Virus record (IMG/VR): IMGVR_UViG_2675903313_000009 | DNA: 64,000 nucleotides | Origin: a virus | Taxonomy: Duplodnaviria > Heunggongvirae > Uroviricota > Caudoviricetes | Reading direction: 5' to 3' (one strand) | Part shown: in pieces, positions 3,000-63,838 of the stretch | Numbering within the stretch: position 1 is the first letter of the stretch | Layout of the letters: each line of letters opens with the position of its first letter | Program-made: the position numbers and the translations under genes | Notes under the pieces: generated by a model | The model's input: the letters and a program-made list of their open reading frames with translations, nothing else | Told to the model about the DNA's origin: nothing | The model's database searches: none

Positions 3000-3780
3000 C
3001 ACATCCTTAAATATCAATAAGTTATAGTTGTTTATACAATCAAGAAAACAACTGAATAACAGATCAACGAAACATCAACGCTTTCACCCGATTTGGTCTA
3101 AAAAATTGACGTTTTCACACATCACTTCTTATACCCGTAACTCTACGCAGCAGACAGCGCCACAGCGTCCAATTTTCACCACAGACGACCCAACACACTA
3201 CCAATAAAAACACACGCTCAAAATCGCTCCCGTTGCGTTACACAACCATATAAACAACTTATTTTCAGGCATAACAAAACAACTAAATAACACAAATGCC
3301 ATTCCCAAAAACAACCAACCTCTTTATGGCAGGCTACCGAAAAGACCCACCTCTTCTCCCCAGGCTACCGGACAACCAACCTAACTTTCACAGGCAATCC
3401 GAAAACATTCATACGCGCGATACCCACGACACGCCATTACCCAAACAGCGAAGAAACACCAGAATCACTGAAACCCCAACGAAGCCTGTAACCGCAAGGT
3501 TTCTCTCAATCCCAAAAGACACGAAACATAACAATCACGGGAAACGCCATTACCCAATACACGAATAACTACAAAAGCCTTTCACACACTCCAGACAAAC
3601 AACTCAAACACAATAACGAAAGGAATCGCCCACCTGCCATTACTCCATACACGGAGAAGAACAATCACCAAAACGACGAGAACACCCCATAGAAGAACCA
3701 CCGCAAAACGAACGAAACCACAGACACCGACAGAGAAAACAACACACCCAATTCACCAACAGAAATAGTCGCCGTATAGA
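3000..3780 (+). other. CA-rich, G- and T-poor non-coding tract (candidate long non-coding transcript)
   Basis: About 780 bp with strong A+C excess on + strand; only a low-complexity ORF without RBS; internal degenerate repeats (caaccaacct..ggctaccg). Confidence 0.4.
3106..3134 (+). promoter_or_regulatory. Candidate sigma70-type promoter reading into the CA-rich tract
   Basis: TTGACG, 17-nt spacer, TTATAC. Confidence 0.35.
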
Positions 3781-3892
3781 ACGTTCTGGAAGGAGTGAGC
3801 ATTAACGCCTATAGAGAGGTTGAGACAGATAAAACACGAAGAAAACACAACATGTATAGCGAACAAGACAGGTATGTATAAGTGGGGAGGGA

Positions 3893-3916
3893 AGGAGGGG
3901 TGTCGCCTCCTTTTTC
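3893..3916 (+). terminator. Rho-independent terminator at end of CA-rich tract
   Basis: Stem aggagg/cctcct with 7-nt loop then TTTTT. Confidence 0.7.
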
Positions 3917-3980
3917 GTATTTATTCAACTCCTGATTTTCATCCCCCGTAACACCCCTACGGTCAGCCTTCGGTCCATAC

Positions 3981-4120
3981 AGGGAAAAGGCTGCATCCCG
4001 CTACAGAAACGGCTGGGTTGCCTTCGGGGAACGGCTGGAGGTTTTCAGGGAAACGGTCGAGTTGCCTATGTGGATTTCGGGAAAAGGCTCGATGCCGGTT
4101 CAGGAACGGTGGCGTACCGG
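3981..4120. repeat. Direct-repeat array A: about 6 units of ~21 bp with core GGGAAACGGC
   Basis: Units agggaaaaggctg / agaaacggctgg / ggggaacggctgg / agggaaacggtcg / gggaaaaggctcg / aggaacggtgg at about two helical-turn spacing. Confidence 0.6.
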
Positions 4121-46050: not shown

Positions 46051-46470
46051 ATGCTAAATTATCATGACAATACGCGTTCTATGCAGACGATCCGCACCAA
46101 TACTGCGGTCATCGACAGCTTTCCTATGCGTATTCACAACAGTGAAGACGCAGTAGAAGTGCGACGTATGTTGTGCCGTGAATCAGCTAACCGCCAGCAC
46201 TTCATCGTCACTTTTAAGAGCGATGTGGCGCGTGCCGAAAAGATCTCTAATTCTACGTCACTGGTTAAACCGTTGGCCGAGGTTGTCGCTAACGGTAAAC
46301 GAACCTCTTTTGTTTTAGATGTTGCTGAACAATATCCTGACTTGAAGTGTTTAGATCGTGATATTTCTTCACGAATCAAACAAGTTGTAGAGTCTTTTAT
46401 GAAGAAATTCTGTAAAATCGATGATATGGAACCATCAACGGCACAGAATACTTCATGGCACCATCTCTAA
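46051..46470 (+). CDS. Hypothetical protein
   Basis: 139-aa ORF. Confidence 0.45.
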   Translation: MLNYHDNTRSMQTIRTNTAVIDSFPMRIHNSEDAVEVRRMLCRESANRQHFIVTFKSDVARAEKISNSTSLVKPLAEVVANGKRTSFVLDVAEQYPDLKCLDRDISSRIKQVVESFMKKFCKIDDMEPSTAQNTSWHHL

Positions 46471-47228
46471 TTGGTCAGGCGAACAGATTAATCCCTGAAA
46501 TAGAAGACTACAGCAAGGTCTTGTCTGAAATGCCGAGAGCGACGAGAATTATCGCTCTCGGTGAGTTCTATTTTATCTCCCGAGGTTTCGATCTAATTCG
46601 ATTTACCGAATACGAGCTTGTTGATTCGGCCTATGAACGCTGTATTGTTGGCGAGTGTCTTGAGTCATGTGATCCTGATTACCAAGAGCAGGAAGTTAAG
46701 CGACTCAAACGTGCTGGTTACACACCTCTTGAGATAGGAGCAGAAATTGAATCCTACAAGTTGCATGTGGGGCAGCCAGTCCAAACAGTCTTCCGCGTGG
46801 CCTACTGCGAGTTTCCAATCAAGGATAAATCTGGAGTAAAAGTCAGCGCCAAGCAGATTAGAGGGGTTTTTACTCATGCTGATTATATGGGATTAGGCAT
46901 CGCAAGTTTTGCTTACCTTTATCTCGTAGATAAGTATCAGTACTTGGTTTGCGATACGTTACAGACGGTAAAAGGCGCAACTCTTTGGGCTGTGAGTATG
47001 CGCAAACATGGACTGGTCGAAATTTACGATACGAAGAACGAAAATTTTATAGAGGAATTGGGTGAGGATGCCTGTGGCGTAAGTGGTTTTATTCCGTGGG
47101 ATATCGGTAAGTCTGACGGAGGCCAGATGCGAAGACGTGAAGAGTGGGGGACTAATAAAATCAATCTCACCCCAGGTGCTTGTACTCATATAGTGAACAT
47201 TCTGACTAAACGATCTATGAATCAATAA
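46455..47228 (+). CDS. Hypothetical protein with possible GNAT-like motif
   Basis: HADYMGLGIAS weakly resembles acetyltransferase motif A; overlaps upstream gene. Confidence 0.45.
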   Translation: MAPSLIGQANRLIPEIEDYSKVLSEMPRATRIIALGEFYFISRGFDLIRFTEYELVDSAYERCIVGECLESCDPDYQEQEVKRLKRAGYTPLEIGAEIESYKLHVGQPVQTVFRVAYCEFPIKDKSGVKVSAKQIRGVFTHADYMGLGIASFAYLYLVDKYQYLVCDTLQTVKGATLWAVSMRKHGLVEIYDTKNENFIEELGEDACGVSGFIPWDIGKSDGGQMRRREEWGTNKINLTPGACTHIVNILTKRSMNQ

Positions 47229-47377: not shown

Positions 47378-48046
47378 ATGACCAAGATCTTTGTGGTTGG
47401 CGGCACAAAGGGCGGGCCTGGCAAATCCACCGTTGCCCAGCAAATTGCCGTTTGCCTGAAAGTCAAAAAGAAGAAGAAGGTTTATATTACCGATATAGAT
47501 ATTCAGCGCACGACAACGAGCTGGTGTGAAGACCGTCGACAGAACGAAGACCTTGAGCTGATTCCTTTTGCATACGTTCAGGATGACATCATTAAGCACC
47601 TAAAATCGCTTCAGGGTAGAGCTGAGTTTGTAGTGGTAGATGCTGGTGGCTTCGACTCCGAAATTCAGCGACAAGCGATGCTGATGGCTGACGTTATCAT
47701 TATCCCGCTGCGTCCTAAGCGTCGTGATTTGAAATCTTTACGTGACATCGATCCTATTATCGACAATGTTCGCAATGTAAACGATAAAGTGAAGGTCCGC
47801 GCGGTCATGAACCAGTGCCCGGCTTTGCCATCACAAGTGTCTCGCATTCTGGCGGCTAAAGAGATTGTTGAGACGTTTGGCATCGAGTCTGCGCCAGTCA
47901 ATCTATATAACCGCAACGTCTATGATGATGCGGAAGAGTCTGGTCGTTCTATCTTTGAAATGACCGGTAGCGAGCGCGACAAAAAGGCGGAAGCCGAGTT
48001 TGAAGAATTTGTAGATTATCTGTTGAGTCTGGAGGAAGAAGAATAA
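47378..48046 (+). CDS. parA: ParA/MinD-family partition ATPase
   Basis: Deviant Walker A GGTKGGPGKST; 222 aa. Confidence 0.85.
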   Translation: MTKIFVVGGTKGGPGKSTVAQQIAVCLKVKKKKKVYITDIDIQRTTTSWCEDRRQNEDLELIPFAYVQDDIIKHLKSLQGRAEFVVVDAGGFDSEIQRQAMLMADVIIIPLRPKRRDLKSLRDIDPIIDNVRNVNDKVKVRAVMNQCPALPSQVSRILAAKEIVETFGIESAPVNLYNRNVYDDAEESGRSIFEMTGSERDKKAEAEFEEFVDYLLSLEEEE

Positions 48047-48405
48047 TGTCCATGAAAATGGGTGACCTAGCAAAGCGCAAAGAGCCTGATGCACCGGCTA
48101 AGAACACAACTCCTTTGCGCCAACCAGTCAGACCACAGGGACGCCCGACTCGTGGCAAAGAGAAAATTAAAAGCCGCACAATGTCACTGGAGGACGAATA
48201 CTTCGAACTGCTGGAGATGATGAAGTTCATCCCTCGCTTCGAGAAGTTCACTCGTTCTGACGTGATTCGTGCTGCTATTTTCCATCTTGCGGAGAAGACA
48301 CCGCAGGAAATCGAGGACATCGTGAAACTTAACGAGGCGATCACAGCTGCCGATGTCACGATGCGTACCGATGAAATCAAACGCGAGTTGATGAAGAAAG
48401 GTTAA
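48046..48405 (+). CDS. Small partition partner (ParG/ParB-like centromere-binding candidate)
   Basis: 119-aa basic protein coupled to parA (ATGTCC overlapping stop). Confidence 0.5.
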   Translation: MSMKMGDLAKRKEPDAPAKNTTPLRQPVRPQGRPTRGKEKIKSRTMSLEDEYFELLEMMKFIPRFEKFTRSDVIRAAIFHLAEKTPQEIEDIVKLNEAITAADVTMRTDEIKRELMKKG

Positions 48406-48412
48406 TTTTATT

Positions 48413-48437
48413 GAGGTGCTGCTTGGCACCTCTTTCT
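48413..48437 (+). terminator. Terminator after partition operon
   Basis: Stem gaggtgc/gcacctc then TTTCT. Confidence 0.65.
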
Positions 48438-48449
48438 ATAGGTTCCCTA

Positions 48450-49169
48450 ATGCTCTACAAATATATTGGAAGTGAAGATTCGCAAAAAGTGTTACGTAAC
48501 CTCAAACGGTTTGTAGAGGACGGCACTATCTCTGCTAGCGCACCTTCTTCATTCAACGACCCATCAGAGTTCAAAGTTTCGATAACGATGGGAGGTACAG
48601 AAGTGGAGCACCGGAAACACTTTGAAGACAATGGATGTAAGGATTTTTCCTTTGAAGACTGGGATGCTGTAGCTCCTGAAGCTGCAAAATCGTTGGCTGT
48701 GGATTTGCGGAAAGAATCATTAGGGGCTTTTGGTGTGGTGTGCTTGTCACCAAACGAAGATAACATCTTGATGTGGTCACATTACTCAGTGTCGCATAAA
48801 GGTTTCTGCATAGGCTTTGATGATGATTTTGTTACCTCTATTGAGGGGTATCACAGCTTTGATAATGTGAAATATATACCTTCTGTTCCCGTGTTCGATG
48901 AAGTTACAGATGAGTTTAAGGTACTTTTTGATAAGCTCTTTTTCTACAAGCACGAATGCTGGAAATATGAGGAAGAACAAAGGGTTATTACTAAAAAAAT
49001 AGGCGCTCAGGCATTTGATAAGAAATATATTAGAGAGATCATTCTTGGACATAACGTTTCTCCTGAAGTAGAAGAATATGCCCGGACACAGCTAGACACG
49101 AGCATCGAGGTTTACAAAATGAGTACACCTGATGATGGTTATCTTCTTGTCAAAGAAAAGCTGAAGTAG
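48450..49169 (+). CDS. DUF2971-like protein
   Basis: N-terminal LYKYIGSED and FNDPSEF, later MWSHY; recalled as DUF2971 hallmarks, not verified. Confidence 0.5.
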   Translation: MLYKYIGSEDSQKVLRNLKRFVEDGTISASAPSSFNDPSEFKVSITMGGTEVEHRKHFEDNGCKDFSFEDWDAVAPEAAKSLAVDLRKESLGAFGVVCLSPNEDNILMWSHYSVSHKGFCIGFDDDFVTSIEGYHSFDNVKYIPSVPVFDEVTDEFKVLFDKLFFYKHECWKYEEEQRVITKKIGAQAFDKKYIREIILGHNVSPEVEEYARTQLDTSIEVYKMSTPDDGYLLVKEKLK

Positions 49170-49235
49170 CTCCAGACTTTCCTCAAATGATTATGTTGGG
49201 CGCTTTTCTTATTGAACTGGTTAGTGAGGCTAATA

Positions 49236-50408
49236 ATGGATTTGTTCTCAACCAAAATAGCAAAAAACAAGCTGCACGAATCTTTTAAACAGATTTATCA
49301 AGATAATACATATGCTCCAGTAAGAGAAGTGATACAGTCGTGGGGGCGTGGGTTACTGGAGCGTAGCGGTGAGCAGACTAAATTCGTTAAAGAGTTTCAG
49401 ACAACCTTCAATTCCGCCTTATGGGAATTGTATCTGAACGAAATGTTTATTCGTCTCGATTATTCTGTCGACTACACAAAAGACAGTCCCGATTTCTGTG
49501 TTACTACACCGTCAGGCTACCAGTTTAACGTCGAAGCTGTGATATCAGATCGGCCACATAATCCACCTGCAGGTGTTCTTTTTAGCGAATCAAAATTCAA
49601 ACATCAATCAACGCTAAAATTAATCGGAAAAATCAAAGACAAACATGATCTTTTTACAGGAGTTAATGGCAAAAAATTCCCGTACTCTACGATGTCTCAT
49701 GTAGTTAATAAGCCGTTTGTTCTGGCGCTTGCACCCTTTGACTCCGATTTATCATTGTCTCAAAATAACACAATCATCAATCGAGTGTTGTTTGGCATTG
49801 AGGAACCTACCACCAGAAATTTGGTGACTGGCAGCCAAACTAAAGTTACCTCAATCAAAAAGAATGAAGACGTTGAAATTCCATTAGGTATATTTACTAA
49901 CGACTCATATAAAGAAATAAGTGCGGTTATTTTCTCCACCACCGGCACTTTTGGAAAAGCCGTGGTTCAAAGCGGTATCGGTAGATATGTAAGGTCAACA
50001 CGATATCGAGCCATTGATGTGAATGATTTCATCGCCAATGAAGGGATGAAAAACGAGGGAAAGCACACACAAAGGATAGGACCTGATCATTTCATCACTA
50101 CATATCGGCATTTTTTAAATAACGAAGTCACTGGTGCGGATATTGTAGTTTGTCATTCCACTGCTCATGAAGAGACGCACTTTGACGGCCTTCATATTTA
50201 CTACAATCCTTTTGCGACAGTGCCACTGGACAGAAATATTTTCTTCCCCCCAGAGATAACTCATAATTTTTACGATATGGAAAAAGAACAGTCTGTTCAG
50301 AATCATCCTGATGGAGCGCTGGTATCTAGACAGGTTTTTGAACCAACTAGAGCACATTTTAGGTATATCATGAAACATTGGTTTCCAGGCTTTCTAAAAG
50401 ATGTTTAA
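49236..50408 (+). CDS. Hypothetical 390-aa protein, partner of DUF2971-like gene
   Basis: GTGAGG RBS; no recognisable motifs; lower GC than neighbours. Confidence 0.55.
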   Translation: MDLFSTKIAKNKLHESFKQIYQDNTYAPVREVIQSWGRGLLERSGEQTKFVKEFQTTFNSALWELYLNEMFIRLDYSVDYTKDSPDFCVTTPSGYQFNVEAVISDRPHNPPAGVLFSESKFKHQSTLKLIGKIKDKHDLFTGVNGKKFPYSTMSHVVNKPFVLALAPFDSDLSLSQNNTIINRVLFGIEEPTTRNLVTGSQTKVTSIKKNEDVEIPLGIFTNDSYKEISAVIFSTTGTFGKAVVQSGIGRYVRSTRYRAIDVNDFIANEGMKNEGKHTQRIGPDHFITTYRHFLNNEVTGADIVVCHSTAHEETHFDGLHIYYNPFATVPLDRNIFFPPEITHNFYDMEKEQSVQNHPDGALVSRQVFEPTRAHFRYIMKHWFPGFLKDV

Positions 50409-50432
50409 GCATCCTGCTGGTTGAATTTGGAA

Positions 50433-50486
50433 CCTGCTTCTGTATATAAATACTAAGTTACTTATTATTATTTATACGGAAGCAGG
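50433..50486. repeat. 54-bp AT-rich near-palindrome with GC clamps (copy 2)
   Basis: About 85% identical to 16705..16761; followed by TCTTTTT. Confidence 0.7.
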
Positions 50487-50572
50487 TCTTTTTCTATGCC
50501 AACTTCCCAGACACATTCCCTTCCGTTTCCACTTCCAAAAACTGCCACCAGTCGCTATCATCCGCTCATTGC

Positions 50573-50594: not shown

Positions 50595-50605
50595 TGGTGA
50601 GCCAC

Positions 50606-51346
50606 ATGAGCCAAATCTTTTTTGATACCATTGACAACGACCAGTACGACTTCATGACAGAGTGGAATACCGCTGTTATGGACAAGTGGGTCGCTGAAAA
50701 CATTGGTTTGTCGCGCTGCAAAGACGAGGCTGAACTCTTCGAGACGAAGTGGTTTGATTACCGCGATATGCATCCTCTCATGGCCACCTGTCTGTTTACG
50801 GAGGCGTACAAACGTCAGTACTCAAATATCATGCTGACGCACGGTCGCGAACACTTTGAAACAGCTCCGTTCACCACCGGGTTAAAACGCCTGCCTTATC
50901 AGGAGTTGTCGACTGCCAATAAAACGTCGCTATGGAAAGCACGCCAGTTTGCTGATCGCTATTGCTGTTCATACGACTACTTTATCTCCACGGTTCTTTC
51001 CGCAGCTGCACGGCGTCTGTGGGACAAGTTGCCGCGCCCACAGCATTTATGGCAGCCAGAACTGGTTGAGATATTCGAAGAGAAATTATCCAGACGCGCA
51101 ACAACCCGTCTGGATGACTCTCTGGTTAGCTTTAAGCATATGGGAGACATGCAGTTCAACCCGATTCAGGAAAGCTATTTTGAGTGGATTCTGGAGCGTT
51201 TGCGCATCATCCCCCGCAGCAAGCGCATACGCGCAATTTTCTCTGCTATCTGGCTAATGGAAATCGTTCCAGAGCGCCTTATTTCCGCCCACTTTCCAGA
51301 AGAACTGGAAGAAGCACGGCGGTTTATTGATCCCCTATCTAATTAA
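50606..51346 (+). CDS. Hypothetical protein (possible replication initiation or helicase loader, by position)
   Basis: ORF immediately upstream of DnaB-like helicase. Confidence 0.45.
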   Translation: MSQIFFDTIDNDQYDFMTEWNTAVMDKWVAENIGLSRCKDEAELFETKWFDYRDMHPLMATCLFTEAYKRQYSNIMLTHGREHFETAPFTTGLKRLPYQELSTANKTSLWKARQFADRYCCSYDYFISTVLSAAARRLWDKLPRPQHLWQPELVEIFEEKLSRRATTRLDDSLVSFKHMGDMQFNPIQESYFEWILERLRIIPRSKRIRAIFSAIWLMEIVPERLISAHFPEELEEARRFIDPLSN

Positions 51347-51389: not shown

Positions 51390-52730
51390 ATGACCGAACT
51401 TTGCCATACAGGACGCGGGCTGTCCGAAGAGTTTGATGAAGATTTCCAGAACAGACTGACGGCATATTTTTGTCGTGATCACGAGTTTCTTACTCGTGCG
51501 GGAGATCTGGTTGTGCCTAGCCAATTTGCCAATGCGGCCAATGCCATATTGGTTAATATGGTTTCGGGCTATTACCGTATGTACAAGAGCGCGCCTTCTT
51601 CATCTGCGATTCTGGATATGCTTAAGCGCGCGAAACGCGATAAGACCATCCGTGAGGAACTCTTCCCGGATGTTGTTGCTGCGTTTAAGCGCATCCTTGC
51701 AGAAAAATTGTCTGATACCACGTACATGGTTGACCAGGTATCCACATTCGCAAAAAGTGTAGCGTTTGATGATGCTCTGATTAAAGCTGCTGAACTGAAA
51801 GAGAAGGGCGACTTTCAGGGGGCGATGGCAATCATGGCCAAGGTTCAGCAGATAGGCTCGAACGAAGCGACCGGAATCTATGACTACTACACCTCCGCAA
51901 GTGAGCGATTGAAAGCGCGTGAATATGAGGCTTCAGAGGAGTATGTGCCAAACAGCATTACAACTGGACTCCCTCTGCTCGATAGGTTGCTGTACCAAAA
52001 AGGCTGGGCGAAGCGTGAAATGGTGCTCTTCATGGGGTTCGCTAAATCCGGCAAATCGACCGCAATGGGTGAGTTTTCCATAAACGCAACGCTTGCTGGC
52101 TACAATGTTCTGTATCTCTCGCTGGAGGTTCACACCACCATTTTATCCGACCGTTTTGATGCAAGATTGTCGGAGACAGAAATGTCCAAGCTGGTGGAAC
52201 GGCGCGATGAGGTTCATCGTAAGTTGGCAGAGTTGGGAGCCACGAAGGGGATTGGTAGTTTGTGGGTGGTTGAGCGTCCGTCAGGAAGTATGTCACCGGC
52301 AGATCTGGACCGTATGCTTAACAGCATGAAAGCCAACGGCATGGTGCCTGACATGGTTGTTGTCGACTACGCAGATTTGATGCGTGCCAGTTATGACCTT
52401 CGTGATGATCGCGCCAACATTCGTAGTATCTACACCGATTTACGTGCTCTTTATGACAAGCATAACGTTGCTGGGATTACGGCATCGCAGACAAACCGTG
52501 AAGGTGGCGCGTCAGAAGTTGCCACAATGATGCACGCTGCCGACAACATCGAAAAAGTACGTATTGCTGACCTGGTAATAACGATCAACAAAACCGAAGA
52601 AGAAGAAGCGAAAGGAGAGGCTCGTCTCTACTTTGCTGGTTCACGTAACCAGCAGGGAGGGATCAGCATTCGCGTTAAACAAAACCTCGAACAAATGCGC
52701 TTCATTGAGCGAATCTTAGACGTTACCTAA
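51390..52730 (+). CDS. DnaB-like replicative helicase
   Basis: Walker A GFAKSGKST, Walker B MVVVDYADLM; 446 aa. Confidence 0.8.
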   Translation: MTELCHTGRGLSEEFDEDFQNRLTAYFCRDHEFLTRAGDLVVPSQFANAANAILVNMVSGYYRMYKSAPSSSAILDMLKRAKRDKTIREELFPDVVAAFKRILAEKLSDTTYMVDQVSTFAKSVAFDDALIKAAELKEKGDFQGAMAIMAKVQQIGSNEATGIYDYYTSASERLKAREYEASEEYVPNSITTGLPLLDRLLYQKGWAKREMVLFMGFAKSGKSTAMGEFSINATLAGYNVLYLSLEVHTTILSDRFDARLSETEMSKLVERRDEVHRKLAELGATKGIGSLWVVERPSGSMSPADLDRMLNSMKANGMVPDMVVVDYADLMRASYDLRDDRANIRSIYTDLRALYDKHNVAGITASQTNREGGASEVATMMHAADNIEKVRIADLVITINKTEEEEAKGEARLYFAGSRNQQGGISIRVKQNLEQMRFIERILDVT

Positions 52731-52736
52731 AAAATA

Positions 52737-52759
52737 AGCGTGGAGAACACCTCCACGCT
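52737..52759 (+). terminator. Hairpin after helicase gene
   Basis: Stem agcgtggag/ctccacgct. Confidence 0.45.
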
Positions 52760-52877
52760 TGATTCATTGGTGAAACAACTTTTCTTTTGCCAAACCACAA
52801 AAGAAAAACACATGAACCTTTATATTATATCAACATTTAGGTTGGTCACAATATTGCCTATTAAAAGTGGAATTATC

Positions 52878-53993
52878 GTGAGCGAGCTGAAAGAGCTAAT
52901 TACCGAATTAGATTTTGAACAATGGTTGGACACTGAAGGTATCGTTTATCGACGTGGAGGCGTGAGTGCTCGCGGTCGTGAAGTGAATATCAAGGAGTGT
53001 CCGGTATGTGGCAGCTCCAACTGGAAGGTATATTTCAATCTGACCAGTGGCGTCGGCAAATGCTTTGCTGGTGATCATCCCGAAGAGATTCAGTTCAATA
53101 AGCTGATCTTCCTCAAGCACTACAGCGGTAAATCACGACGACAGTTCGAGGAATATGTGCAGAACGCGCTGATCTCACAAGGATGGGCGCCGAAGAAGGA
53201 AGAGGTCGTGCTGGCCAGCAAGGTTGAACTCGAAGGGCCAGTAGCTCTCCCTCGACATTACGAACTCCCCATTGACGGTCGTCTTCCTGATTATCTGGTG
53301 GAGCGCCATATCTCCCCGGATCTGGCCAAATACTTTGATCTGCGTTACTGCGTCGAAGGCAAGCACGCATACGTCGATCCGTACACAGACCAGGTCAAAG
53401 GGCAGGTGTTTGATATGCGCATCCTGATACCGGTTTACGATCTGGATGGCGTGATGAAGACCTTCCAGGGGCGTGACATTACCGGTGCAGCAGAACGTCG
53501 CTACCTCTTTCCTATGCAGCTTCCAGCTTCAGGTAGGTTTCTCTACAACGGCCATAATGCAGTCGGCAAACAGACTGTAGTTGTCTGTGAGGGGGCGTTC
53601 GATGTTATGGGGGTCAAACGAGCTATTTTTGACGAAGAAACATTACGTGATTACGTGGAACCAATAGGAACGTTCGGGATGCATCTATCTGGTAACACCA
53701 CTCAGGATGCAGAAGATCAGCTGGGCGCGTTCCTGACGCTCAAGGCGCGTGGGCTACGTAATGTGATTATGATGTGGGATAGTGAAAAGCAGGCTATACG
53801 CAACACTATGGCCGCAGCCAGGCGACTGAGCAGTATTGGTCTTAATGTGAAAATTGCATGTTTGGGCGAGGAAGGACTCGACCCCGGCGATGCGACCCCG
53901 GGGCAGATTATCAAAGCCTACTATTGCGCAAAACCTTACTCACGACAGCTTGAACTTTTAAGCAAGGTAAAAGGCATAGCTGCATTAGTTTGA
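52878..53993 (+). CDS. DNA primase (zinc-finger plus TOPRIM)
   Basis: CPVCGSS..CFAGDH zinc-binding motif; TOPRIM-like VVVCEGAFDVMG; start codon uncertain. Confidence 0.75.
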   Translation: MSELKELITELDFEQWLDTEGIVYRRGGVSARGREVNIKECPVCGSSNWKVYFNLTSGVGKCFAGDHPEEIQFNKLIFLKHYSGKSRRQFEEYVQNALISQGWAPKKEEVVLASKVELEGPVALPRHYELPIDGRLPDYLVERHISPDLAKYFDLRYCVEGKHAYVDPYTDQVKGQVFDMRILIPVYDLDGVMKTFQGRDITGAAERRYLFPMQLPASGRFLYNGHNAVGKQTVVVCEGAFDVMGVKRAIFDEETLRDYVEPIGTFGMHLSGNTTQDAEDQLGAFLTLKARGLRNVIMMWDSEKQAIRNTMAAARRLSSIGLNVKIACLGEEGLDPGDATPGQIIKAYYCAKPYSRQLELLSKVKGIAALV

Positions 53994-60803: not shown

Positions 60804-60826
60804 AAAGGGGCTTCGGCCCCTTTTTT
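60804..60826. terminator. Bidirectional rho-independent terminator
   Basis: aaaggggc ttcg gcccc tttttt, A/T runs on both sides. Confidence 0.9.
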
Positions 60827-60841
60827 GTTGAACAGTGCAAT

Positions 60842-62104
60842 TTACTTTACATAGTCGCCCAGTTTTAATATTTCGCGCTTATATTCTTTAACCATGCTAC
60901 TGGATTCAGTATAAATTCGATTTAAAAGATTATCGCTATCTTTATTCTCATTTATCTTAATGAGTGATAATTTAAATTCATAGTCATCAAATGCCACAAT
61001 CAAATGGTGGCCTGGGATTATATCTTCGTCACTCTTGAAGTATATATCTTCAAGTATGTAATCTAGTTGATTAGATTTTCTTTTCTCGATGTAATCTTCA
61101 GCCATAGCTATTACATCATTCCTGTCATTTAACCTGTTTTTTTCGGAAGGCACATCTTCGTAATGTTGCACGATTGAACAACCAATAAGGCGTGGGATGT
61201 AAACGTCAAAATGAGTAACTCTATCATTCGCGGTTTTAAGTTGTTCCTCAAAGTAGTTTCTTACATGTAAAGGCAACTTCTCAAAGTAATCATTAATTAT
61301 AGGAGAACAAGGAGTTTTATAATTCATAAGAACCGACGGTACGAGCTGTGGGCGTCGAAACATCCAGTCCCTTTTAACGTCCGATGGAACATAATAACTT
61401 TTAATGATATTATCAAAATAATTTATCATTCGAGATTTGAATATTTTATTGAATCTAAGGTTTATGAATGTATCCAGATAAGGCATATTTGAATAAGCAT
61501 CATCAAAAAATATTTCATCATTGAAAAAATCATATTTATTCAATAAACAACACAGTTTTTCCGAATTAATATGTTCACAATAATCGATTTTTAATCCAAA
61601 GATAGCAATGATCAACTTCATCTGAGGTGGGATTTTAAAAATTAATTGTGATACATACGCTCTTTTTTCCTTGAGACATTCCCCATCAATATAAAATGAA
61701 CTATCCACATACTCAAATATATTAATAATATGCTTCACATACTGTATTACCTCATGCTGTTTTACCAATGGGTAATAGAGTCTATGTAACTCATCGCTGT
61801 TTAAATTAATTTTGTGTTTATCGATAATTTGTTTTGCAAGAAGACATAACGCATCATGTTGATTTAATAAGGAATCAAACCATTGTTTAAATGCACTCTT
61901 TCGCATTTCGAACAATGATTCAGTTGTTAATTGAAGGGCTGAAAAAGCTGCTTTTGCACTTTTTCTCGCTTCGTAGGCATTCCATGCTGTTGCTATAAAA
62001 GCAAATGCTGTAGCCAATGTTCCAACAGTTTGACCATTTAAAACAACCCAATCCCAAAAAATAACGGTGAGCAGTAGTATAATAATGAAAATTAAAAAAG
62101 GCAT
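60842..62104 (-). CDS. AT-rich membrane-anchored protein of unknown function
   Basis: 420-aa minus-strand ORF; two N-terminal hydrophobic helices; GC far below neighbours; own terminator. Confidence 0.6.
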   Translation of the reverse strand: MPFLIFIIILLLTVIFWDWVVLNGQTVGTLATAFAFIATAWNAYEARKSAKAAFSALQLTTESLFEMRKSAFKQWFDSLLNQHDALCLLAKQIIDKHKINLNSDELHRLYYPLVKQHEVIQYVKHIINIFEYVDSSFYIDGECLKEKRAYVSQLIFKIPPQMKLIIAIFGLKIDYCEHINSEKLCCLLNKYDFFNDEIFFDDAYSNMPYLDTFINLRFNKIFKSRMINYFDNIIKSYYVPSDVKRDWMFRRPQLVPSVLMNYKTPCSPIINDYFEKLPLHVRNYFEEQLKTANDRVTHFDVYIPRLIGCSIVQHYEDVPSEKNRLNDRNDVIAMAEDYIEKRKSNQLDYILEDIYFKSDEDIIPGHHLIVAFDDYEFKLSLIKINENKDSDNLLNRIYTESSSMVKEYKREILKLGDYVK

Positions 62105-62278
62105 GTATGTATTTCACTCTACTAACTATAAATTATTAGGCTAATGTTAACCAAACAATGCCTTAATTAATAGATTGATCGAGGCTTTAATAGCTTTATA
62201 ATGCAGACTGCAAAGATAAGTATGCACATACCTATCTTCTTTGTAAGTAAAGTTGCATATCAATTCTATGAGGTAACA

Positions 62279-62524
62279 ATGACGATCACTATCTACGGAC
62301 GAGATAACTGCTCATACTGCAAACGTGCGGTCGAGCTGGCGAAGCAACTAAAGGGACATGGCTACGGTGATTATGAGTACATCGACATCACCACTGCCGG
62401 TATCAACAAGGAAAAACTAAGTGAAATTGTTGGTAAACCGGTAGAGACTATCCCCCAGGTGCTGATCGATGGCCAGCCGATTGGCGGATACACAGAACTG
62501 GCTGCATACGTCAGCACCCTCTGA
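62279..62524 (+). CDS. Glutaredoxin (GrxA/NrdH-like)
   Basis: CSYC active site in YGRDNCSYCKRA; GKPVETIPQ and GGYTE motifs resemble E. coli glutaredoxin 1 from memory. Confidence 0.8.
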   Translation: MTITIYGRDNCSYCKRAVELAKQLKGHGYGDYEYIDITTAGINKEKLSEIVGKPVETIPQVLIDGQPIGGYTELAAYVSTL

Positions 62525-62529
62525 TTTTA

Positions 62530-62552
62530 ACGGCTCACAGGAGCCGTTTTTA
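62530..62552 (+). terminator. Rho-independent terminator after glutaredoxin
   Basis: Stem acggctc/gagccgt then TTTTT. Confidence 0.85.
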
Positions 62553-62603
62553 TTCCCACCAAACTCACTCCCATTTCCCTTAAAATTCAAAAAACAACGT
62601 CAA

Positions 62604-62734: not shown

Positions 62735-63838
62735 ATGAAAAATAGCTTTGACAGAGCACGCGCTGCGGAGAACACCTCAAAAGAGGCGATTGAGTATCTC
62801 GAAAGAGCATCTCAAATGCAGGCCGTTATGATCTCGCAGGTCAGCAATGACATGAGATTCTCGGACGCATTCATGTTATTCACTCGCTTATCTCTGCTGA
62901 TAACAAGACGTCGGCCAGAGATCGCTGTTCATTGTATTTTGATACATGTTTTGCCGCACATTGCCGATGTAAAAGTAAGTGACATTAATAGGTTCATGGT
63001 GAACCAACTGGTCAACCCACTAATACTGGATGGCAAAATTGTTATGGGCCGCCGCGTTTTCTCTCTGATGAAGCAGTTCCTTAGCTGGTGCGCCTTCCAG
63101 GGGATGATAGACGTGTCACCGTTAAACGATATGTCACTAAACAAAGTTGCCGGTGGCGCAAAGCCCACACCTCGCGAGCGGAAGCTGACCGACGCAGAGG
63201 TATGGGTGTTCTGGAATATATGGGACTACTTCAATGTGTGCGCTGGTACAAAATGGGCGGCCAGGCTGTGTCTTGTATCCGCAAGACGACCTGACGAAGT
63301 ACTGCGGGCTAAAAAAAGTGAGTTCAATCTTAAGCGTGGGGTTTGGAATCAAGGCAAGAGGAACAAATCTGCCCGTGAGCATTCGCTGCCTTTAAGCACA
63401 TTAATGCGCACATGTATTGAAGAGTTGTTCGAATACGGTAAAGGCAGCCAGTGGCTCGTGCCTTCGAATAAAAAAATCGGGAAAGACCTTCCTATGTCTA
63501 AAGTGGCAATAGCCCAGGCATTACGTCGTATCCTGGAACGACCAGAACTGATGGAGCTTGAGCCATTTACACCCCGAGACTTGCGCCGTACTGCGCGTAG
63601 TTACTTCCCAGCATTAGGCATAAGCCAGGAGGTATCACGCAAAATCATGAACCACAGTCTTGAGGGGATAGATCGAGTCTACGACCGGCACGATTATATG
63701 GACGAGATGCGAGACGCCTTAGAAAGTTTCTCGACGTACATCGCATCAATCGTAGAGCAACCGGATTTAGACGAAATTGACCACAAATTCAAGGGAGATC
63801 GTCTATCAACAGAGCTTATTCGTGTAAATTTTTCATAG
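62735..63838 (+). CDS. int: Tyrosine-type site-specific recombinase / integrase
   Basis: C-terminal catalytic signature (TPRDLRRT, MNHSLEGI, RVYDRHDY); N-terminus atypical. Confidence 0.8.
   Translation: MKNSFDRARAAENTSKEAIEYLERASQMQAVMISQVSNDMRFSDAFMLFTRLSLLITRRRPEIAVHCILIHVLPHIADVKVSDINRFMVNQLVNPLILDGKIVMGRRVFSLMKQFLSWCAFQGMIDVSPLNDMSLNKVAGGAKPTPRERKLTDAEVWVFWNIWDYFNVCAGTKWAARLCLVSARRPDEVLRAKKSEFNLKRGVWNQGKRNKSAREHSLPLSTLMRTCIEELFEYGKGSQWLVPSNKKIGKDLPMSKVAIAQALRRILERPELMELEPFTPRDLRRTARSYFPALGISQEVSRKIMNHSLEGIDRVYDRHDYMDEMRDALESFSTYIASIVEQPDLDEIDHKFKGDRLSTELIRVNFS

What the first reader, a model, noticed from the sequence alone, without database searches (positions are those of the whole stretch)
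48413..50486. DUF2971-like protein plus a 390-aa unknown protein as a self-contained cassette between partition and replication modules
The pair lies between a terminator after the ParA operon (48413..48437) and a 54-bp palindromic element (50433..50486), so it looks like an independently inserted unit. The first protein carries LYKY, FNDPSEF and MWSHY motifs that I recall as DUF2971 hallmarks; the second has no recognisable motifs. Neither is needed for virion production, partition or replication. This is the typical footprint of a prophage-carried abortive-infection or anti-phage cassette, and this gene pair does not match any named system I know.
Basis: partly seen in the sequence, partly recalled or inferred. 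Interest (0 to 1): 0.75.

Follow-up and report, generated by a model that had tools for sequence, protein, structure and literature searches.

The report
Two known-type anti-phage genes stacked
The two genes sit in a swappable cargo slot of an SSU5-like E. coli phage-plasmid: the 390-aa "unknown" protein is the already named, experimentally validated defence nuclease PD-T7-5, and the first is a DUF2971 protein with an ADP-ribosyltransferase fold that is a catalogued defence candidate, so the finding is real but largely ordinary.

Summary
Two same-strand ORFs (239 aa, 48450-49169; 390 aa, 49236-50408) lie between the parA/119-aa operon and a conserved palindrome, in a low-GC stretch of an E. 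coli SSU5-like phage-plasmid.

- **ORF A** passes Pfam DUF2971 and matches PADLOC candidate PDC-S31. Its high-confidence model is closest to DarT-type ADP-ribosyltransferases.
- **ORF B** is not unknown. It matches PD-T7-5 over its full length (E 1.8e-139). PD-T7-5 is a single-gene E. coli system validated by Vassallo et al. 2022 and already reported in SSU5-group phage-plasmids.
- **The slot** is a real defence hotspot. Relatives carry DUF2971 alone, PD-T7-5 alone, PD-T4-3, a KAP NTPase (PDC-S49) or unknown genes there.
- **The palindrome** belongs to the backbone, not the cassette.

Each gene also occurs alone elsewhere: DUF2971 in a P2 hotspot, PD-T7-5 in a P4-like satellite. So they are best read as two autonomous modules.

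One residual point is interesting. Close PD-T7-5 relatives usually follow an ART-like gene, either DUF2971 or, in a sister clade, AbiGi. Two "alone" loci keep a DUF2971 3' remnant. A functional couple is therefore not excluded (about 0.2).

Novelty is low: already known.

The parts
47378..48046 (+). ParA/MipZ-type partition ATPase. This is the conserved left-flank backbone.
   Evidence: Pfam MipZ 7.3e-14, AAA_31, CbiA and ParA. It is conserved in 713-724 PLSDB records.
48046..48405 (+). 119-aa protein, the second gene of the par operon and presumably the centromere-binding partner. It is the last backbone gene before the slot.
   Evidence: The ORF is. It is conserved next to parA in all relatives examined. 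It has no Pfam hit. Phage Cyrano annotates it as RelE/ParE, which I could not confirm.
48413..48437 (+). GC-rich hairpin plus a short T-tract, 17 nt upstream of the ORF A start codon. It travels with DUF2971-type cargo.
   Evidence: Found by the terminator scan. Backbone homology with the KAP-NTPase variant ends at 48413. Homology with the DUF2971-only variants runs on to 48473.
48450..49169 (+). ORF A, 239 aa. It is a DUF2971 / PADLOC PDC-S31 protein with an ADP-ribosyltransferase-like fold.
49093..49235 (+). The last 76 nt of ORF A plus the 66-nt intergenic spacer. This is the likely position of ORF B's own promoter and ribosome-binding site.
   Evidence: A weak sigma-70-like site lies at 49093-49120. 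Vassallo et al. cloned PD-T7-5 with only 143 bp of native upstream DNA (PMC9519451 Table S2). A remnant of about 100 nt of the DUF2971 3' end is retained upstream of 'alone' PD-T7-5 genes. That this stretch is the promoter is an inference.
49236..50408 (+). ORF B, 390 aa. It is a PD-T7-5 family defence protein: an N-terminal PD-(D/E)xK-like nuclease core (about residues 58-165) plus a beta-rich C-terminal domain with no known match.
50432..50487 (.). Conserved 56-bp palindrome followed by a T-run. It marks the right edge of the variable slot and is part of the backbone. It is probably the terminator that insulates the replication module.
   Evidence: The outer arms ACCTGCTT/AAGCAGGT are invariant in 10 SSU5-like elements carrying 6 different cargos. 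Homology to all relatives resumes at 50421-50432.
50597..51346 (+). phrog_2500 protein of unknown function. It is the first backbone gene of the replication module, followed by a DnaB-like helicase (51390-52730) and a primase (52740-53993).
   Evidence: Conserved in relatives.

Best explanation
The window is an E. coli SSU5-like phage-plasmid. Between its parA/119-aa partition operon and a conserved palindrome in front of the replication genes lies a cargo slot that acts as an anti-phage defence hotspot. In this element the slot holds two single-gene modules, one after the other.

**ORF B is PD-T7-5.** It is a known E. coli defence protein with an N-terminal PD-(D/E)xK-type nuclease core. I infer that the core cuts nucleic acid once the variable C-terminal part of the protein has detected infection.

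**ORF A is a DUF2971 protein with a DarT-like ADP-ribosyltransferase fold.** I infer that on infection it uses NAD+ to ADP-ribosylate phage or host nucleic acid, or a protein, and so blocks phage gene expression. The DUF2971 system Aristaios in Lactococcus blocks phage transcription.

Both would protect the lysogen, and thereby the phage-plasmid, from competing phages.

**Shown here:** family membership, the folds, the conserved catalytic-type residues, the variability of the slot, and the occurrence of each gene on its own.

**Taken from the literature:** the defence phenotype of PD-T7-5 as a single gene.

**Inferred:** the substrates, the triggers, and any defence activity of ORF A in E. coli.
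For: **Identity of the element**
- It is 99.9% identical to E. coli plasmids of about 112-127 kb.
- It is 83% identical to Salmonella phage SSU5 in the flanks only.

**ORF B**
- PADLOC PD-T7-5, E 1.8e-139, full length.
- Same length (390 aa) as the validated protein, which was cloned with 143 bp upstream and 119 bp downstream (PMC9519451 Table S2).
- The published HHpred nuclease hits lie at residues 58-107. This is where the invariant E64, D86 and E100 sit.
- The model shows the canonical alpha-beta-beta-beta-alpha-beta core there.
- PD-T7-5 is already reported in SSU5 clade J phage-plasmids.

**ORF A**
- Family hits.
- Structure and conserved residues.
- Literature: DUF2971 is described as an ART family related to DarT and AbiGi (PMC12522546). 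Aristaios is a DUF2971 single-gene Abi system (PMC11381338 and PMC13064643).

**The slot is a hotspot.** Backbone homology breaks at 48406-48473 and resumes at 50421-50432. Alternative occupants are:
- DUF2971 alone;
- two hypothetical genes plus DUF2971;
- PD-T7-5 alone;
- PD-T4-3 (GIY-YIG);
- a KAP NTPase (PDC-S49);
- unknown genes.

**Each gene stands alone elsewhere**
- A DUF2971 gene (52% identical) sits alone in the P2-like prophage hotspot between the tail-fibre assembly gene and the sheath gene.
- PD-T7-5 (76% identical) sits alone in a P4-like satellite.
- PD-T7-5 alleles with and without DUF2971 are 96-98% identical.
- 80 more distant PD-T7-5 relatives have no DUF2971 within 4 kb. 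Their neighbours include RM, GmrSD, RT and SIR2 genes.
Against: - **No phenotype was measured here.** ORF A's family has no validated member in Enterobacteria. PDC-S31 is only a candidate, and I could not compare ORF A with the Aristaios sequence.
- **The nuclease motif is incomplete.** The canonical lysine of (D/E)xK is a valine (V102).
- **I could not establish which allele was validated.** The experimentally tested PD-T7-5 (RRM82777.1) could be this allele or one about 76% identical to it.
- **The two genes may not be fully independent.**
  - This exact ORF B always follows this ORF A in the 10 places shown.
  - In a sister clade an AbiGi gene sits in the position DUF2971 holds here.
  - Two 'alone' PD-T7-5 loci are deletion derivatives of a pair.
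Confidence: 0.7

Rival explanations
1. The two genes form one cooperating two-gene system: an ART-like partner (DUF2971, replaceable by AbiGi) plus the PD-T7-5 nuclease. The layout would resemble lactococcal AbiG, which I recall as AbiGi of about 250 aa plus AbiGii of about 400 aa. The ART-like protein would act as sensor, regulator or second effector.
For: - In the Enterobacterales clade (at least 73% identity), PD-T7-5 usually lies 41-85 nt downstream of, and on the same strand as, an ART-like gene.
- That gene is DUF2971 in three divergent pairs: 99/99%, 73/80% and 54/76% identity to ORF A/ORF B. The 73/80% pair is inferred only from matching contig lengths.
- It is AbiGi (Pfam 6.6e-49) in a Proteus lambdoid prophage, in Yersinia prophages and in a chromosomal defence island.
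- DUF2971-linked alleles are paraphyletic around the AbiGi-linked clade, which suggests displacement in place.
- The 'alone' loci in Cronobacter and Enterobacter keep about 100 nt of the DUF2971 3' end (tblastn E 2e-11 and 6e-12). The P4-satellite allele keeps a weaker trace (E 3.7e-4).
- A sister plasmid carries AbiGi plus an unrelated 403-aa protein elsewhere.
Against: - PD-T7-5 protected as a single cloned gene (PMC9519451).
- Intact PD-T7-5 persists after loss of DUF2971: the P4-satellite allele belongs to a cluster of 354 member sequences, and there are Cronobacter, Enterobacter and Salmonella alleles.
- DUF2971 stands alone in P2 hotspots and in many SSU5 slots, with no PD-T7-5 remnant downstream.
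- Among 49 upstream neighbours of more distant relatives, no family recurs.
- ORF A has no AbiGi hit and ORF B has no AbiGii hit in Pfam or PADLOC.
- Adjacency inside a hotspot is expected by stacking alone.
Confidence: 0.17
2. ORF A is not a defence gene. It would be an ADP-ribosyltransferase used by the phage-plasmid itself, for example for host take-over, anti-defence or modification of its own or the host's machinery, as T4 Alt/ModA/ModB do. Only ORF B would be defensive.
For: - Some DUF2971 allele is present in about 40% of SSU5-type plasmid records (309 of about 720) and in SSU5, Cyrano and pJN2-26. That is more widespread than a typical hotspot cargo.
- ART-fold enzymes are used by phages against hosts (own knowledge).
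- About 18% of DUF2971 proteins are predicted effectors (PMC12522546).
Against: - The gene is absent from most relatives and is replaced by bona fide defence genes (PD-T4-3, PD-T7-5) in the same slot.
- A 52%-identical gene occupies the classical P2 defence hotspot.
- It is a PADLOC candidate family, and Aristaios is a validated DUF2971 defence system.
- The alleles are highly diversified (about 40% identity between neighbouring lineages), as is typical of defence genes.
Confidence: 0.08
3. The pair is a toxin-antitoxin or addiction module that stabilises the plasmid prophage. One gene would be the toxin and the other its antidote, with no role against phages.
For: - It lies next to the partition operon.
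- Pfam labels the related AbiGi family as an 'antitoxin'.
- DarT-like ARTs and nucleases are typical toxins.
- The neighbouring slot upstream of parA holds GNAT/TacA toxin-antitoxin pairs in relatives.
Against: - Each gene is found intact without the other.
- PD-T7-5 was cloned alone on a low-copy plasmid and was scored as a defence system (PMC9519451).
- There is no small antitoxin-like ORF, and no macrodomain (DarG-like) partner.
Confidence: 0.04

Closest known systems
PD-T7-5 (Vassallo et al. 2022, Nat Microbiol; single-gene E. coli defence system; in PADLOC and DefenseFinder)
   Same: - ORF B matches the family HMM over its full length (E 1.8e-139).
- It has the same length, 390 aa.
- Its conserved nuclease-like motif region (residues 58-107) is where the published HHpred hits fall.
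- It comes from the same host species and is carried on a mobile element.
- The family is already reported in SSU5-group phage-plasmids.
   Different: - Nothing structural differs.
- I could not check whether this allele is identical to the validated protein RRM82777.1 or is one of the alleles about 76% identical to it.
- Here it lies directly behind a DUF2971 gene, a feature the literature I could read does not mention.
PD-T7-1 (Vassallo et al. 2022)
   Same: It shares the N-terminal 240 residues with ORF B, that is the nuclease core plus the middle region (PADLOC 4.4e-42; residues 1-241 against profile positions 108-347). PD-T7-1-type relatives (450 aa) occupy the P2 tail hotspot in Yersinia phages.
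   Different: PD-T7-1 has an extra N-terminal extension of about 107 residues and a different C-terminus. ORF B scores far better on the PD-T7-5 model.
PDC-S31 (PADLOC v2 single-gene defence candidate) / Pfam DUF2971
   Same: ORF A matches four PDC-S31 models (best E 4.5e-38, nearly full length) and passes the Pfam gathering cut-off. The hallmark residues are conserved.
   Different: PDC-S31 is only a computational candidate. I found no paper that tests it.
Aristaios (Lactococcus plasmid single-gene Abi system, 316 aa, DUF2971, ART fold; blocks phage transcription)
   Same: Both carry a DUF2971 domain, have a predicted ADP-ribosyltransferase fold, are single genes and are plasmid-borne.
   Different: - Aristaios is 316 aa and ORF A is 239 aa.
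- The host is Gram-positive.
DarT of DarTG (DNA ADP-ribosyltransferase toxin with macrodomain antitoxin)
   Different: - There is no sequence-level match.
- There is no DarG macrodomain partner.
- ORF A has large helical inserts.
- ORF A is not a member of the DarT family.
AbiG (Lactococcus AbiGi + AbiGii two-gene abortive infection system)
   Same: The layout and sizes are similar: an ART-related gene of about 240 aa followed by a gene of about 390-400 aa on the same strand. In a sister clade, true AbiGi genes sit directly upstream of PD-T7-5.
   Different: - ORF A does not hit AbiGi and ORF B does not hit AbiGii in Pfam or PADLOC.
- hhalign aligns only the YExE stretch of DUF2971 and AbiGi (probability 8.8%).
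- AbiG is described as a two-component system, whereas PD-T7-5 works alone.

Membership tests
PD-T7-5 | Full-length match to the family profile used by defence-system finders | tested here: met
   PADLOC PDLC04110: E 1.8e-139, 462.6 bits, residues 1-371 against profile positions 1-342 of 346.
PD-T7-5 | Single gene sufficient, with no obligate partner | tested here: met
   This is comparative evidence only. Intact homologues (73-77% identical) stand alone in SSU5 slots of Salmonella, Enterobacter and Cronobacter and in a P4-like satellite. The published clone held only 143 bp upstream of the ORF. No experiment was done here.
PD-T7-5 | N-terminal PD-(D/E)xK-like nuclease region (published HHpred hits at residues 58-107) | tested here: inconclusive
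PD-T7-5 | Protection against T7 and other phages | not testable with these tools
   This needs plaque assays.
DUF2971 (PF11185) / PDC-S31 | Profile match above the curated cut-off | tested here: met
   Pfam 30.2 bits against a cut-off of 22, covering profile positions 1-89 of 89. PADLOC PDC-S31 4.5e-38, residues 2-234 against profile positions 9-254 of 259.
DUF2971 (PF11185) / PDC-S31 | ADP-ribosyltransferase fold with a conserved Tyr (motif II) and ExE (motif III), as described in PMC12522546 | tested here: met
DUF2971 (PF11185) / PDC-S31 | NAD+-dependent ADP-ribosylation activity and anti-phage phenotype | not testable with these tools
   I found no published test of an enterobacterial member.
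Aristaios | Detectable homology to the Aristaios protein itself | not tested
The two share only the Pfam domain.
AbiG (AbiGi + AbiGii) | First gene matches AbiGi (PF10899 / PADLOC AbiGi) | tested here: not met
   ORF A gives no AbiGi hit at E <= 0.1. True AbiGi genes next to PD-T7-5 relatives score 6.6e-49. hhalign aligns DUF2971 and AbiGi over only 14 columns, at probability 8.8%.
AbiG (AbiGi + AbiGii) | Second gene matches AbiGii | tested here: not met
   ORF B gives no AbiGii hit in Pfam or PADLOC. No profile-profile test against an AbiGii alignment was possible.
DarTG | DarT-family toxin plus an adjacent macrodomain antitoxin (DarG) | tested here: not met
   There is no sequence match to solved DarT chains, even at E 10. 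Neither ORF B nor any neighbour has a macrodomain.
Defence hotspot of a mobile element | Conserved flanks with interchangeable cargo that includes known defence genes | tested here: met
   The breakpoints are 48406-48473 and 50421-50432. At least 8 different occupancies were seen, including the validated PD-T7-5 and PD-T4-3 and the candidates PDC-S31 and PDC-S49.

The most novel reading that the evidence does not exclude
PD-T7-5 and an upstream ART-like gene form an evolutionarily linked couple, an AbiG-like architecture in Enterobacteria. The ART-like gene is DUF2971 here and AbiGi in a sister clade. It would modulate, back up or widen the action of the nuclease, so PD-T7-5 would have been characterised as only half of its native system. 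The evidence does not exclude this:
- the pair looks ancestral in the Enterobacterales clade;
- the partner was displaced in place by a distant homologue;
- the 'alone' loci in Cronobacter and Enterobacter are deletion derivatives that keep a DUF2971 3' end, perhaps because it holds the promoter.
Probability: 0.18. Interest if true: 0.55.

Novelty: already known. Interest (0 to 1): 0.22.

Why it matters
Practically, this removes an apparent novelty. Standard defence-finder profiles name both genes. RefSeq records nevertheless still label ORF B a "hypothetical protein" (13 of 5,426 complete E. coli genomes, always on plasmids of 111-240 kb, most about 112 kb).

Two modest points add value:

1. 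**The slot is a well-delimited defence hotspot of SSU5-group phage-plasmids.** It runs from the parAB operon to the palindrome, with sharp conserved edges. Several occupants are uncharacterised: a 352-aa gene, a 250+140-aa pair, and two genes predicted here to be membrane proteins in SSU5. The slot is therefore a cheap place to look for new systems.

2. **An ART-like gene recurs directly upstream of PD-T7-5.** If the link is functional, it would connect two poorly understood families, DUF2971/AbiGi and PD-T7-5, and would give a handle on the still unknown mechanism of AbiG-type systems.

The mechanisms of PD-T7-5 and DUF2971 are both unresolved, so the catalytic residues listed here are directly testable.

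Tried and rejected
- **Sequence search of both family profiles against all PDB chains.** Nothing useful, even at E 10.
- **NCBIfam.** No hit for either protein.
- **Is DUF2971 a general neighbour of PD-T7-5?** No. Among 80 genome loci there were no DUF2971 HMM hits within 4 kb, and no family recurred among 49 upstream genes.
- **Is the 403-aa partner of AbiGi on a sister plasmid, or the 420-aa ORF at 60842-62104, a distant PD-T7-5 relative?** hhalign probability is at most 0.14%.
- **The palindrome as part of the cassette or as an insertion scar.** Rejected, because it is conserved in all relatives.
- **The hairpin at 48413 as a significant terminator.** The scan count equals the chance expectation.
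- **Which allele Vassallo et al. cloned.** I tried to settle this from cluster accessions and contig coordinates, without success.
- **PD-T7-5 remnants downstream of DUF2971-alone genes.** None found.
Full report
**What is there.** Window 48413-50486 holds two ORFs on the + strand.
- ORF A runs 48450-49169 (239 aa, MLYKY...).
- ORF B runs 49236-50408 (390 aa, MDLFST...). The two are separated by 66 nt.
- Upstream lie a ParA/MipZ-type ATPase (47378-48046) and a 119-aa gene (48046-48405).
- Downstream lie a phrog_2500 gene, a DnaB-like helicase and a primase.
- A small hairpin sits at 48413-48432. The count of such sites in the region equals the chance expectation.
- A 56-bp palindrome sits at 50432-50487 and is followed by a T-run.
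- GC falls to 38-41% across the pair, against 47-50% in the flanks.

**What the element is.** The region is 99.9% identical to E. coli plasmids of about 112-127 kb. Its flanks, but not the pair, are 97% identical to Escherichia phages Cyrano, PhiR41_1 and CMS-2020a, 83% to Salmonella phage SSU5 and about 79% to Klebsiella phage-plasmids. It is an SSU5-group phage-plasmid.

**ORF A.**
- It passes Pfam DUF2971 (30.2 bits against a cut-off of 22). It matches PADLOC candidate PDC-S31 (4.5e-38) and phrog_1762.
The same alignment shows an invariant Y173-E174, with E176 at least 90% conserved, and R178.
- The AlphaFold model is very confident (pLDDT 96.1).
- This agrees with a published survey that places DUF2971 in the ART superfamily near DarT and AbiGi, with a conserved Tyr and an ExE motif (PMC12522546).
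- It also agrees with Aristaios, a lactococcal single-gene abortive-infection system that carries DUF2971 and blocks phage transcription (PMC11381338 and PMC13064643).
- I found no experimental test of an enterobacterial DUF2971 gene, and no paper on PDC-S31.

**ORF B.**
- Contrary to the finding, it is named. It matches PADLOC PD-T7-5 over its whole length (E 1.8e-139). Over residues 1-241 only, it also matches PD-T7-1.
- PD-T7-5 was isolated by Vassallo et al. 2022 from E. coli UMB0934 as a single ORF of the same size. It was cloned with 143 bp upstream and 119 bp downstream and annotated "Nuclease" (PMC9519451 Tables S1-S2).
- Their HHpred hits (Hjc, FokI_C, PDDEXK_5, RmuC) lie at residues 58-107.
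- In my 62-sequence alignment, E64, P85-D86-F87 and E100 are invariant there. The model (pLDDT 88.5) shows the canonical nuclease core.
- The nuclease assignment is therefore plausible but not proven. The beta-rich C-terminal domain has no known match.
- A 2025 preprint already lists PD-T7-5 among the DefenseFinder hits in E. coli/Shigella SSU5 clade J phage-plasmids.

**The slot.**
- Homology to relatives ends at 48406-48473 and resumes at 50421-50432, at the left arm of the palindrome.
- The palindrome's outer arms are invariant in ten elements with six different cargos. It is backbone, most simply a terminator that insulates the replication genes.
- Occupants of the slot in relatives are:
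  - a divergent DUF2971 gene alone (pECOH89, Cyrano, Klebsiella);
  - two hypothetical genes plus DUF2971 (SSU5);
  - PD-T7-5 alone (Cronobacter, Salmonella, Enterobacter);
  - PD-T4-3, a validated GIY-YIG system;
  - a KAP NTPase matching PDC-S49;
  - unknown genes.
- Of about 713-724 related PLSDB records, 11 carry this pair and 309 records (including a few non-SSU5 plasmids) carry some DUF2971 homologue.
- 13 of 5,426 complete E. coli genomes carry the cassette, always on a plasmid.

**One system or two?**

*For autonomy:*
- PD-T7-5 worked as a single cloned gene.
- Intact homologues stand alone in three SSU5 lineages and in a P4-like satellite next to smpB.
- A 52%-identical DUF2971 gene stands alone in the P2-like hotspot between the tail-fibre assembly gene and the sheath gene, and in many SSU5 slots.
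- Alleles of PD-T7-5 with and without DUF2971 are 96-98% identical.
- 80 more distant relatives have no DUF2971 nearby, and their upstream genes share no family.

*For linkage:*
- The exact ORF B sequence follows the 239-aa DUF2971 in all ten places shown.
- Divergent pairs exist, at 54/76% and apparently 73/80% identity to ORF A/ORF B. The second pair is inferred only from matching contig lengths.
- A sister clade of PD-T7-5 (85-90% identical within the clade) is always preceded by a true AbiGi gene, in three unrelated contexts.
- The "alone" loci of Cronobacter and Enterobacter keep about 100 nt of a DUF2971 3' end (tblastn E 2e-11 and 6e-12). They therefore descend from a pair.

*My reading:* the pair is ancestral in this enterobacterial clade and tends to move as a block. 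PD-T7-5 does not need its neighbour. The retained 3' end probably carries its promoter (inference). I give about 0.7 to two autonomous stacked modules and about 0.17 to real cooperation.

**Verdict.** The finding is real and is correctly sensed as anti-phage cargo, but it is not a new system. ORF B is PD-T7-5, and ORF A is a catalogued DUF2971/PDC-S31 candidate with a DarT-like ART fold. Novelty: already known. Interest is low, apart from the recurrent pairing of an ART-like gene with PD-T7-5 and the uncharacterised alternative occupants of the hotspot.

Noticed in passing
window 46051-47228 (+): A second variable slot lies just upstream of parA. In the window it holds an overlapping gene pair of 139 aa and 257 aa (phrog_2594 and phrog_3307), with no meaningful Pfam, PADLOC or NCBIfam hit. 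Relatives carry other cargo at the same place: a GNAT-toxin/TacA (DUF1778) antitoxin pair on the other strand (Cyrano, Cronobacter, several E. coli), or other unknown genes. Homology to many relatives starts only at about 47226. The pair is a candidate toxin-antitoxin or defence pair.
   Followed up: partly
window 60825-62603, next to the integrase gene at 62735-63838: This is a third variable region. The window has an unknown 420-aa ORF (60842-62104, minus strand) with no family hit. The sister plasmid pR7-S2K78-1 carries the same DUF2971+PD-T7-5 cassette. At this place it has instead an AbiGi gene (273 aa) followed by a 403-aa protein with a weak HSDR_N_2 (nuclease) hit, then GrxA and a 307-aa gene.
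   Followed up: partly
window 50432-50487, and the same site in L002-L006, L011, L100, L103, L109, L112: The palindrome at the right edge of the hotspot is conserved across E. coli, Salmonella, Cronobacter, Enterobacter and Klebsiella SSU5-like elements. Its outer arms ACCTGCTT/AAGCAGGT are invariant and its AT-rich centre is variable. It could be a terminator, a protein-binding site or the recombination edge for cargo exchange.
   Followed up: partly
L014 5187-7176; L015-L017 5249-7182; L123 3249-5173: A true AbiGi gene (228-242 aa) lies 65-85 nt upstream of a PD-T7-5 homologue (77% identical to ORF B). This unit occurs in a Proteus lambdoid prophage, in Yersinia prophages and in a chromosomal defence island. 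No AbiGii gene is present, and PD-T7-5 occupies the place AbiGii would hold.
   Followed up: partly
L006 about 3400-3500; L103 about 3900-4000; L098 about 3860-4000: Loci where PD-T7-5 stands alone keep a remnant of the 3' end of a DUF2971 gene directly upstream. The remnant is 80% identical over 102 nt in Cronobacter and Enterobacter. A weaker protein-level trace is present in the P4-like satellite allele.
   Followed up: yes
L126 1089-2147 (-); L128 1088-2146 (-); L129 1080-2247 (+); L002 2185-3229 (+): Several alternative occupants of the same hotspot have no Pfam family and no convincing PADLOC match. They are a 352-aa gene on the opposite strand (E. coli ETEC plasmid, Klebsiella), a 250+140-aa pair (pRM13322) and two hypothetical genes, probably membrane proteins, in SSU5. 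All are candidate new defence genes by location.
   Followed up: no
window 48046-48405: Phage Cyrano annotates the 119-aa gene after parA as a 'RelE/ParE putative toxin'. No Pfam or NCBIfam model supports that. Its position and conservation fit a ParB/ParG-like centromere-binding partner instead.
   Followed up: no
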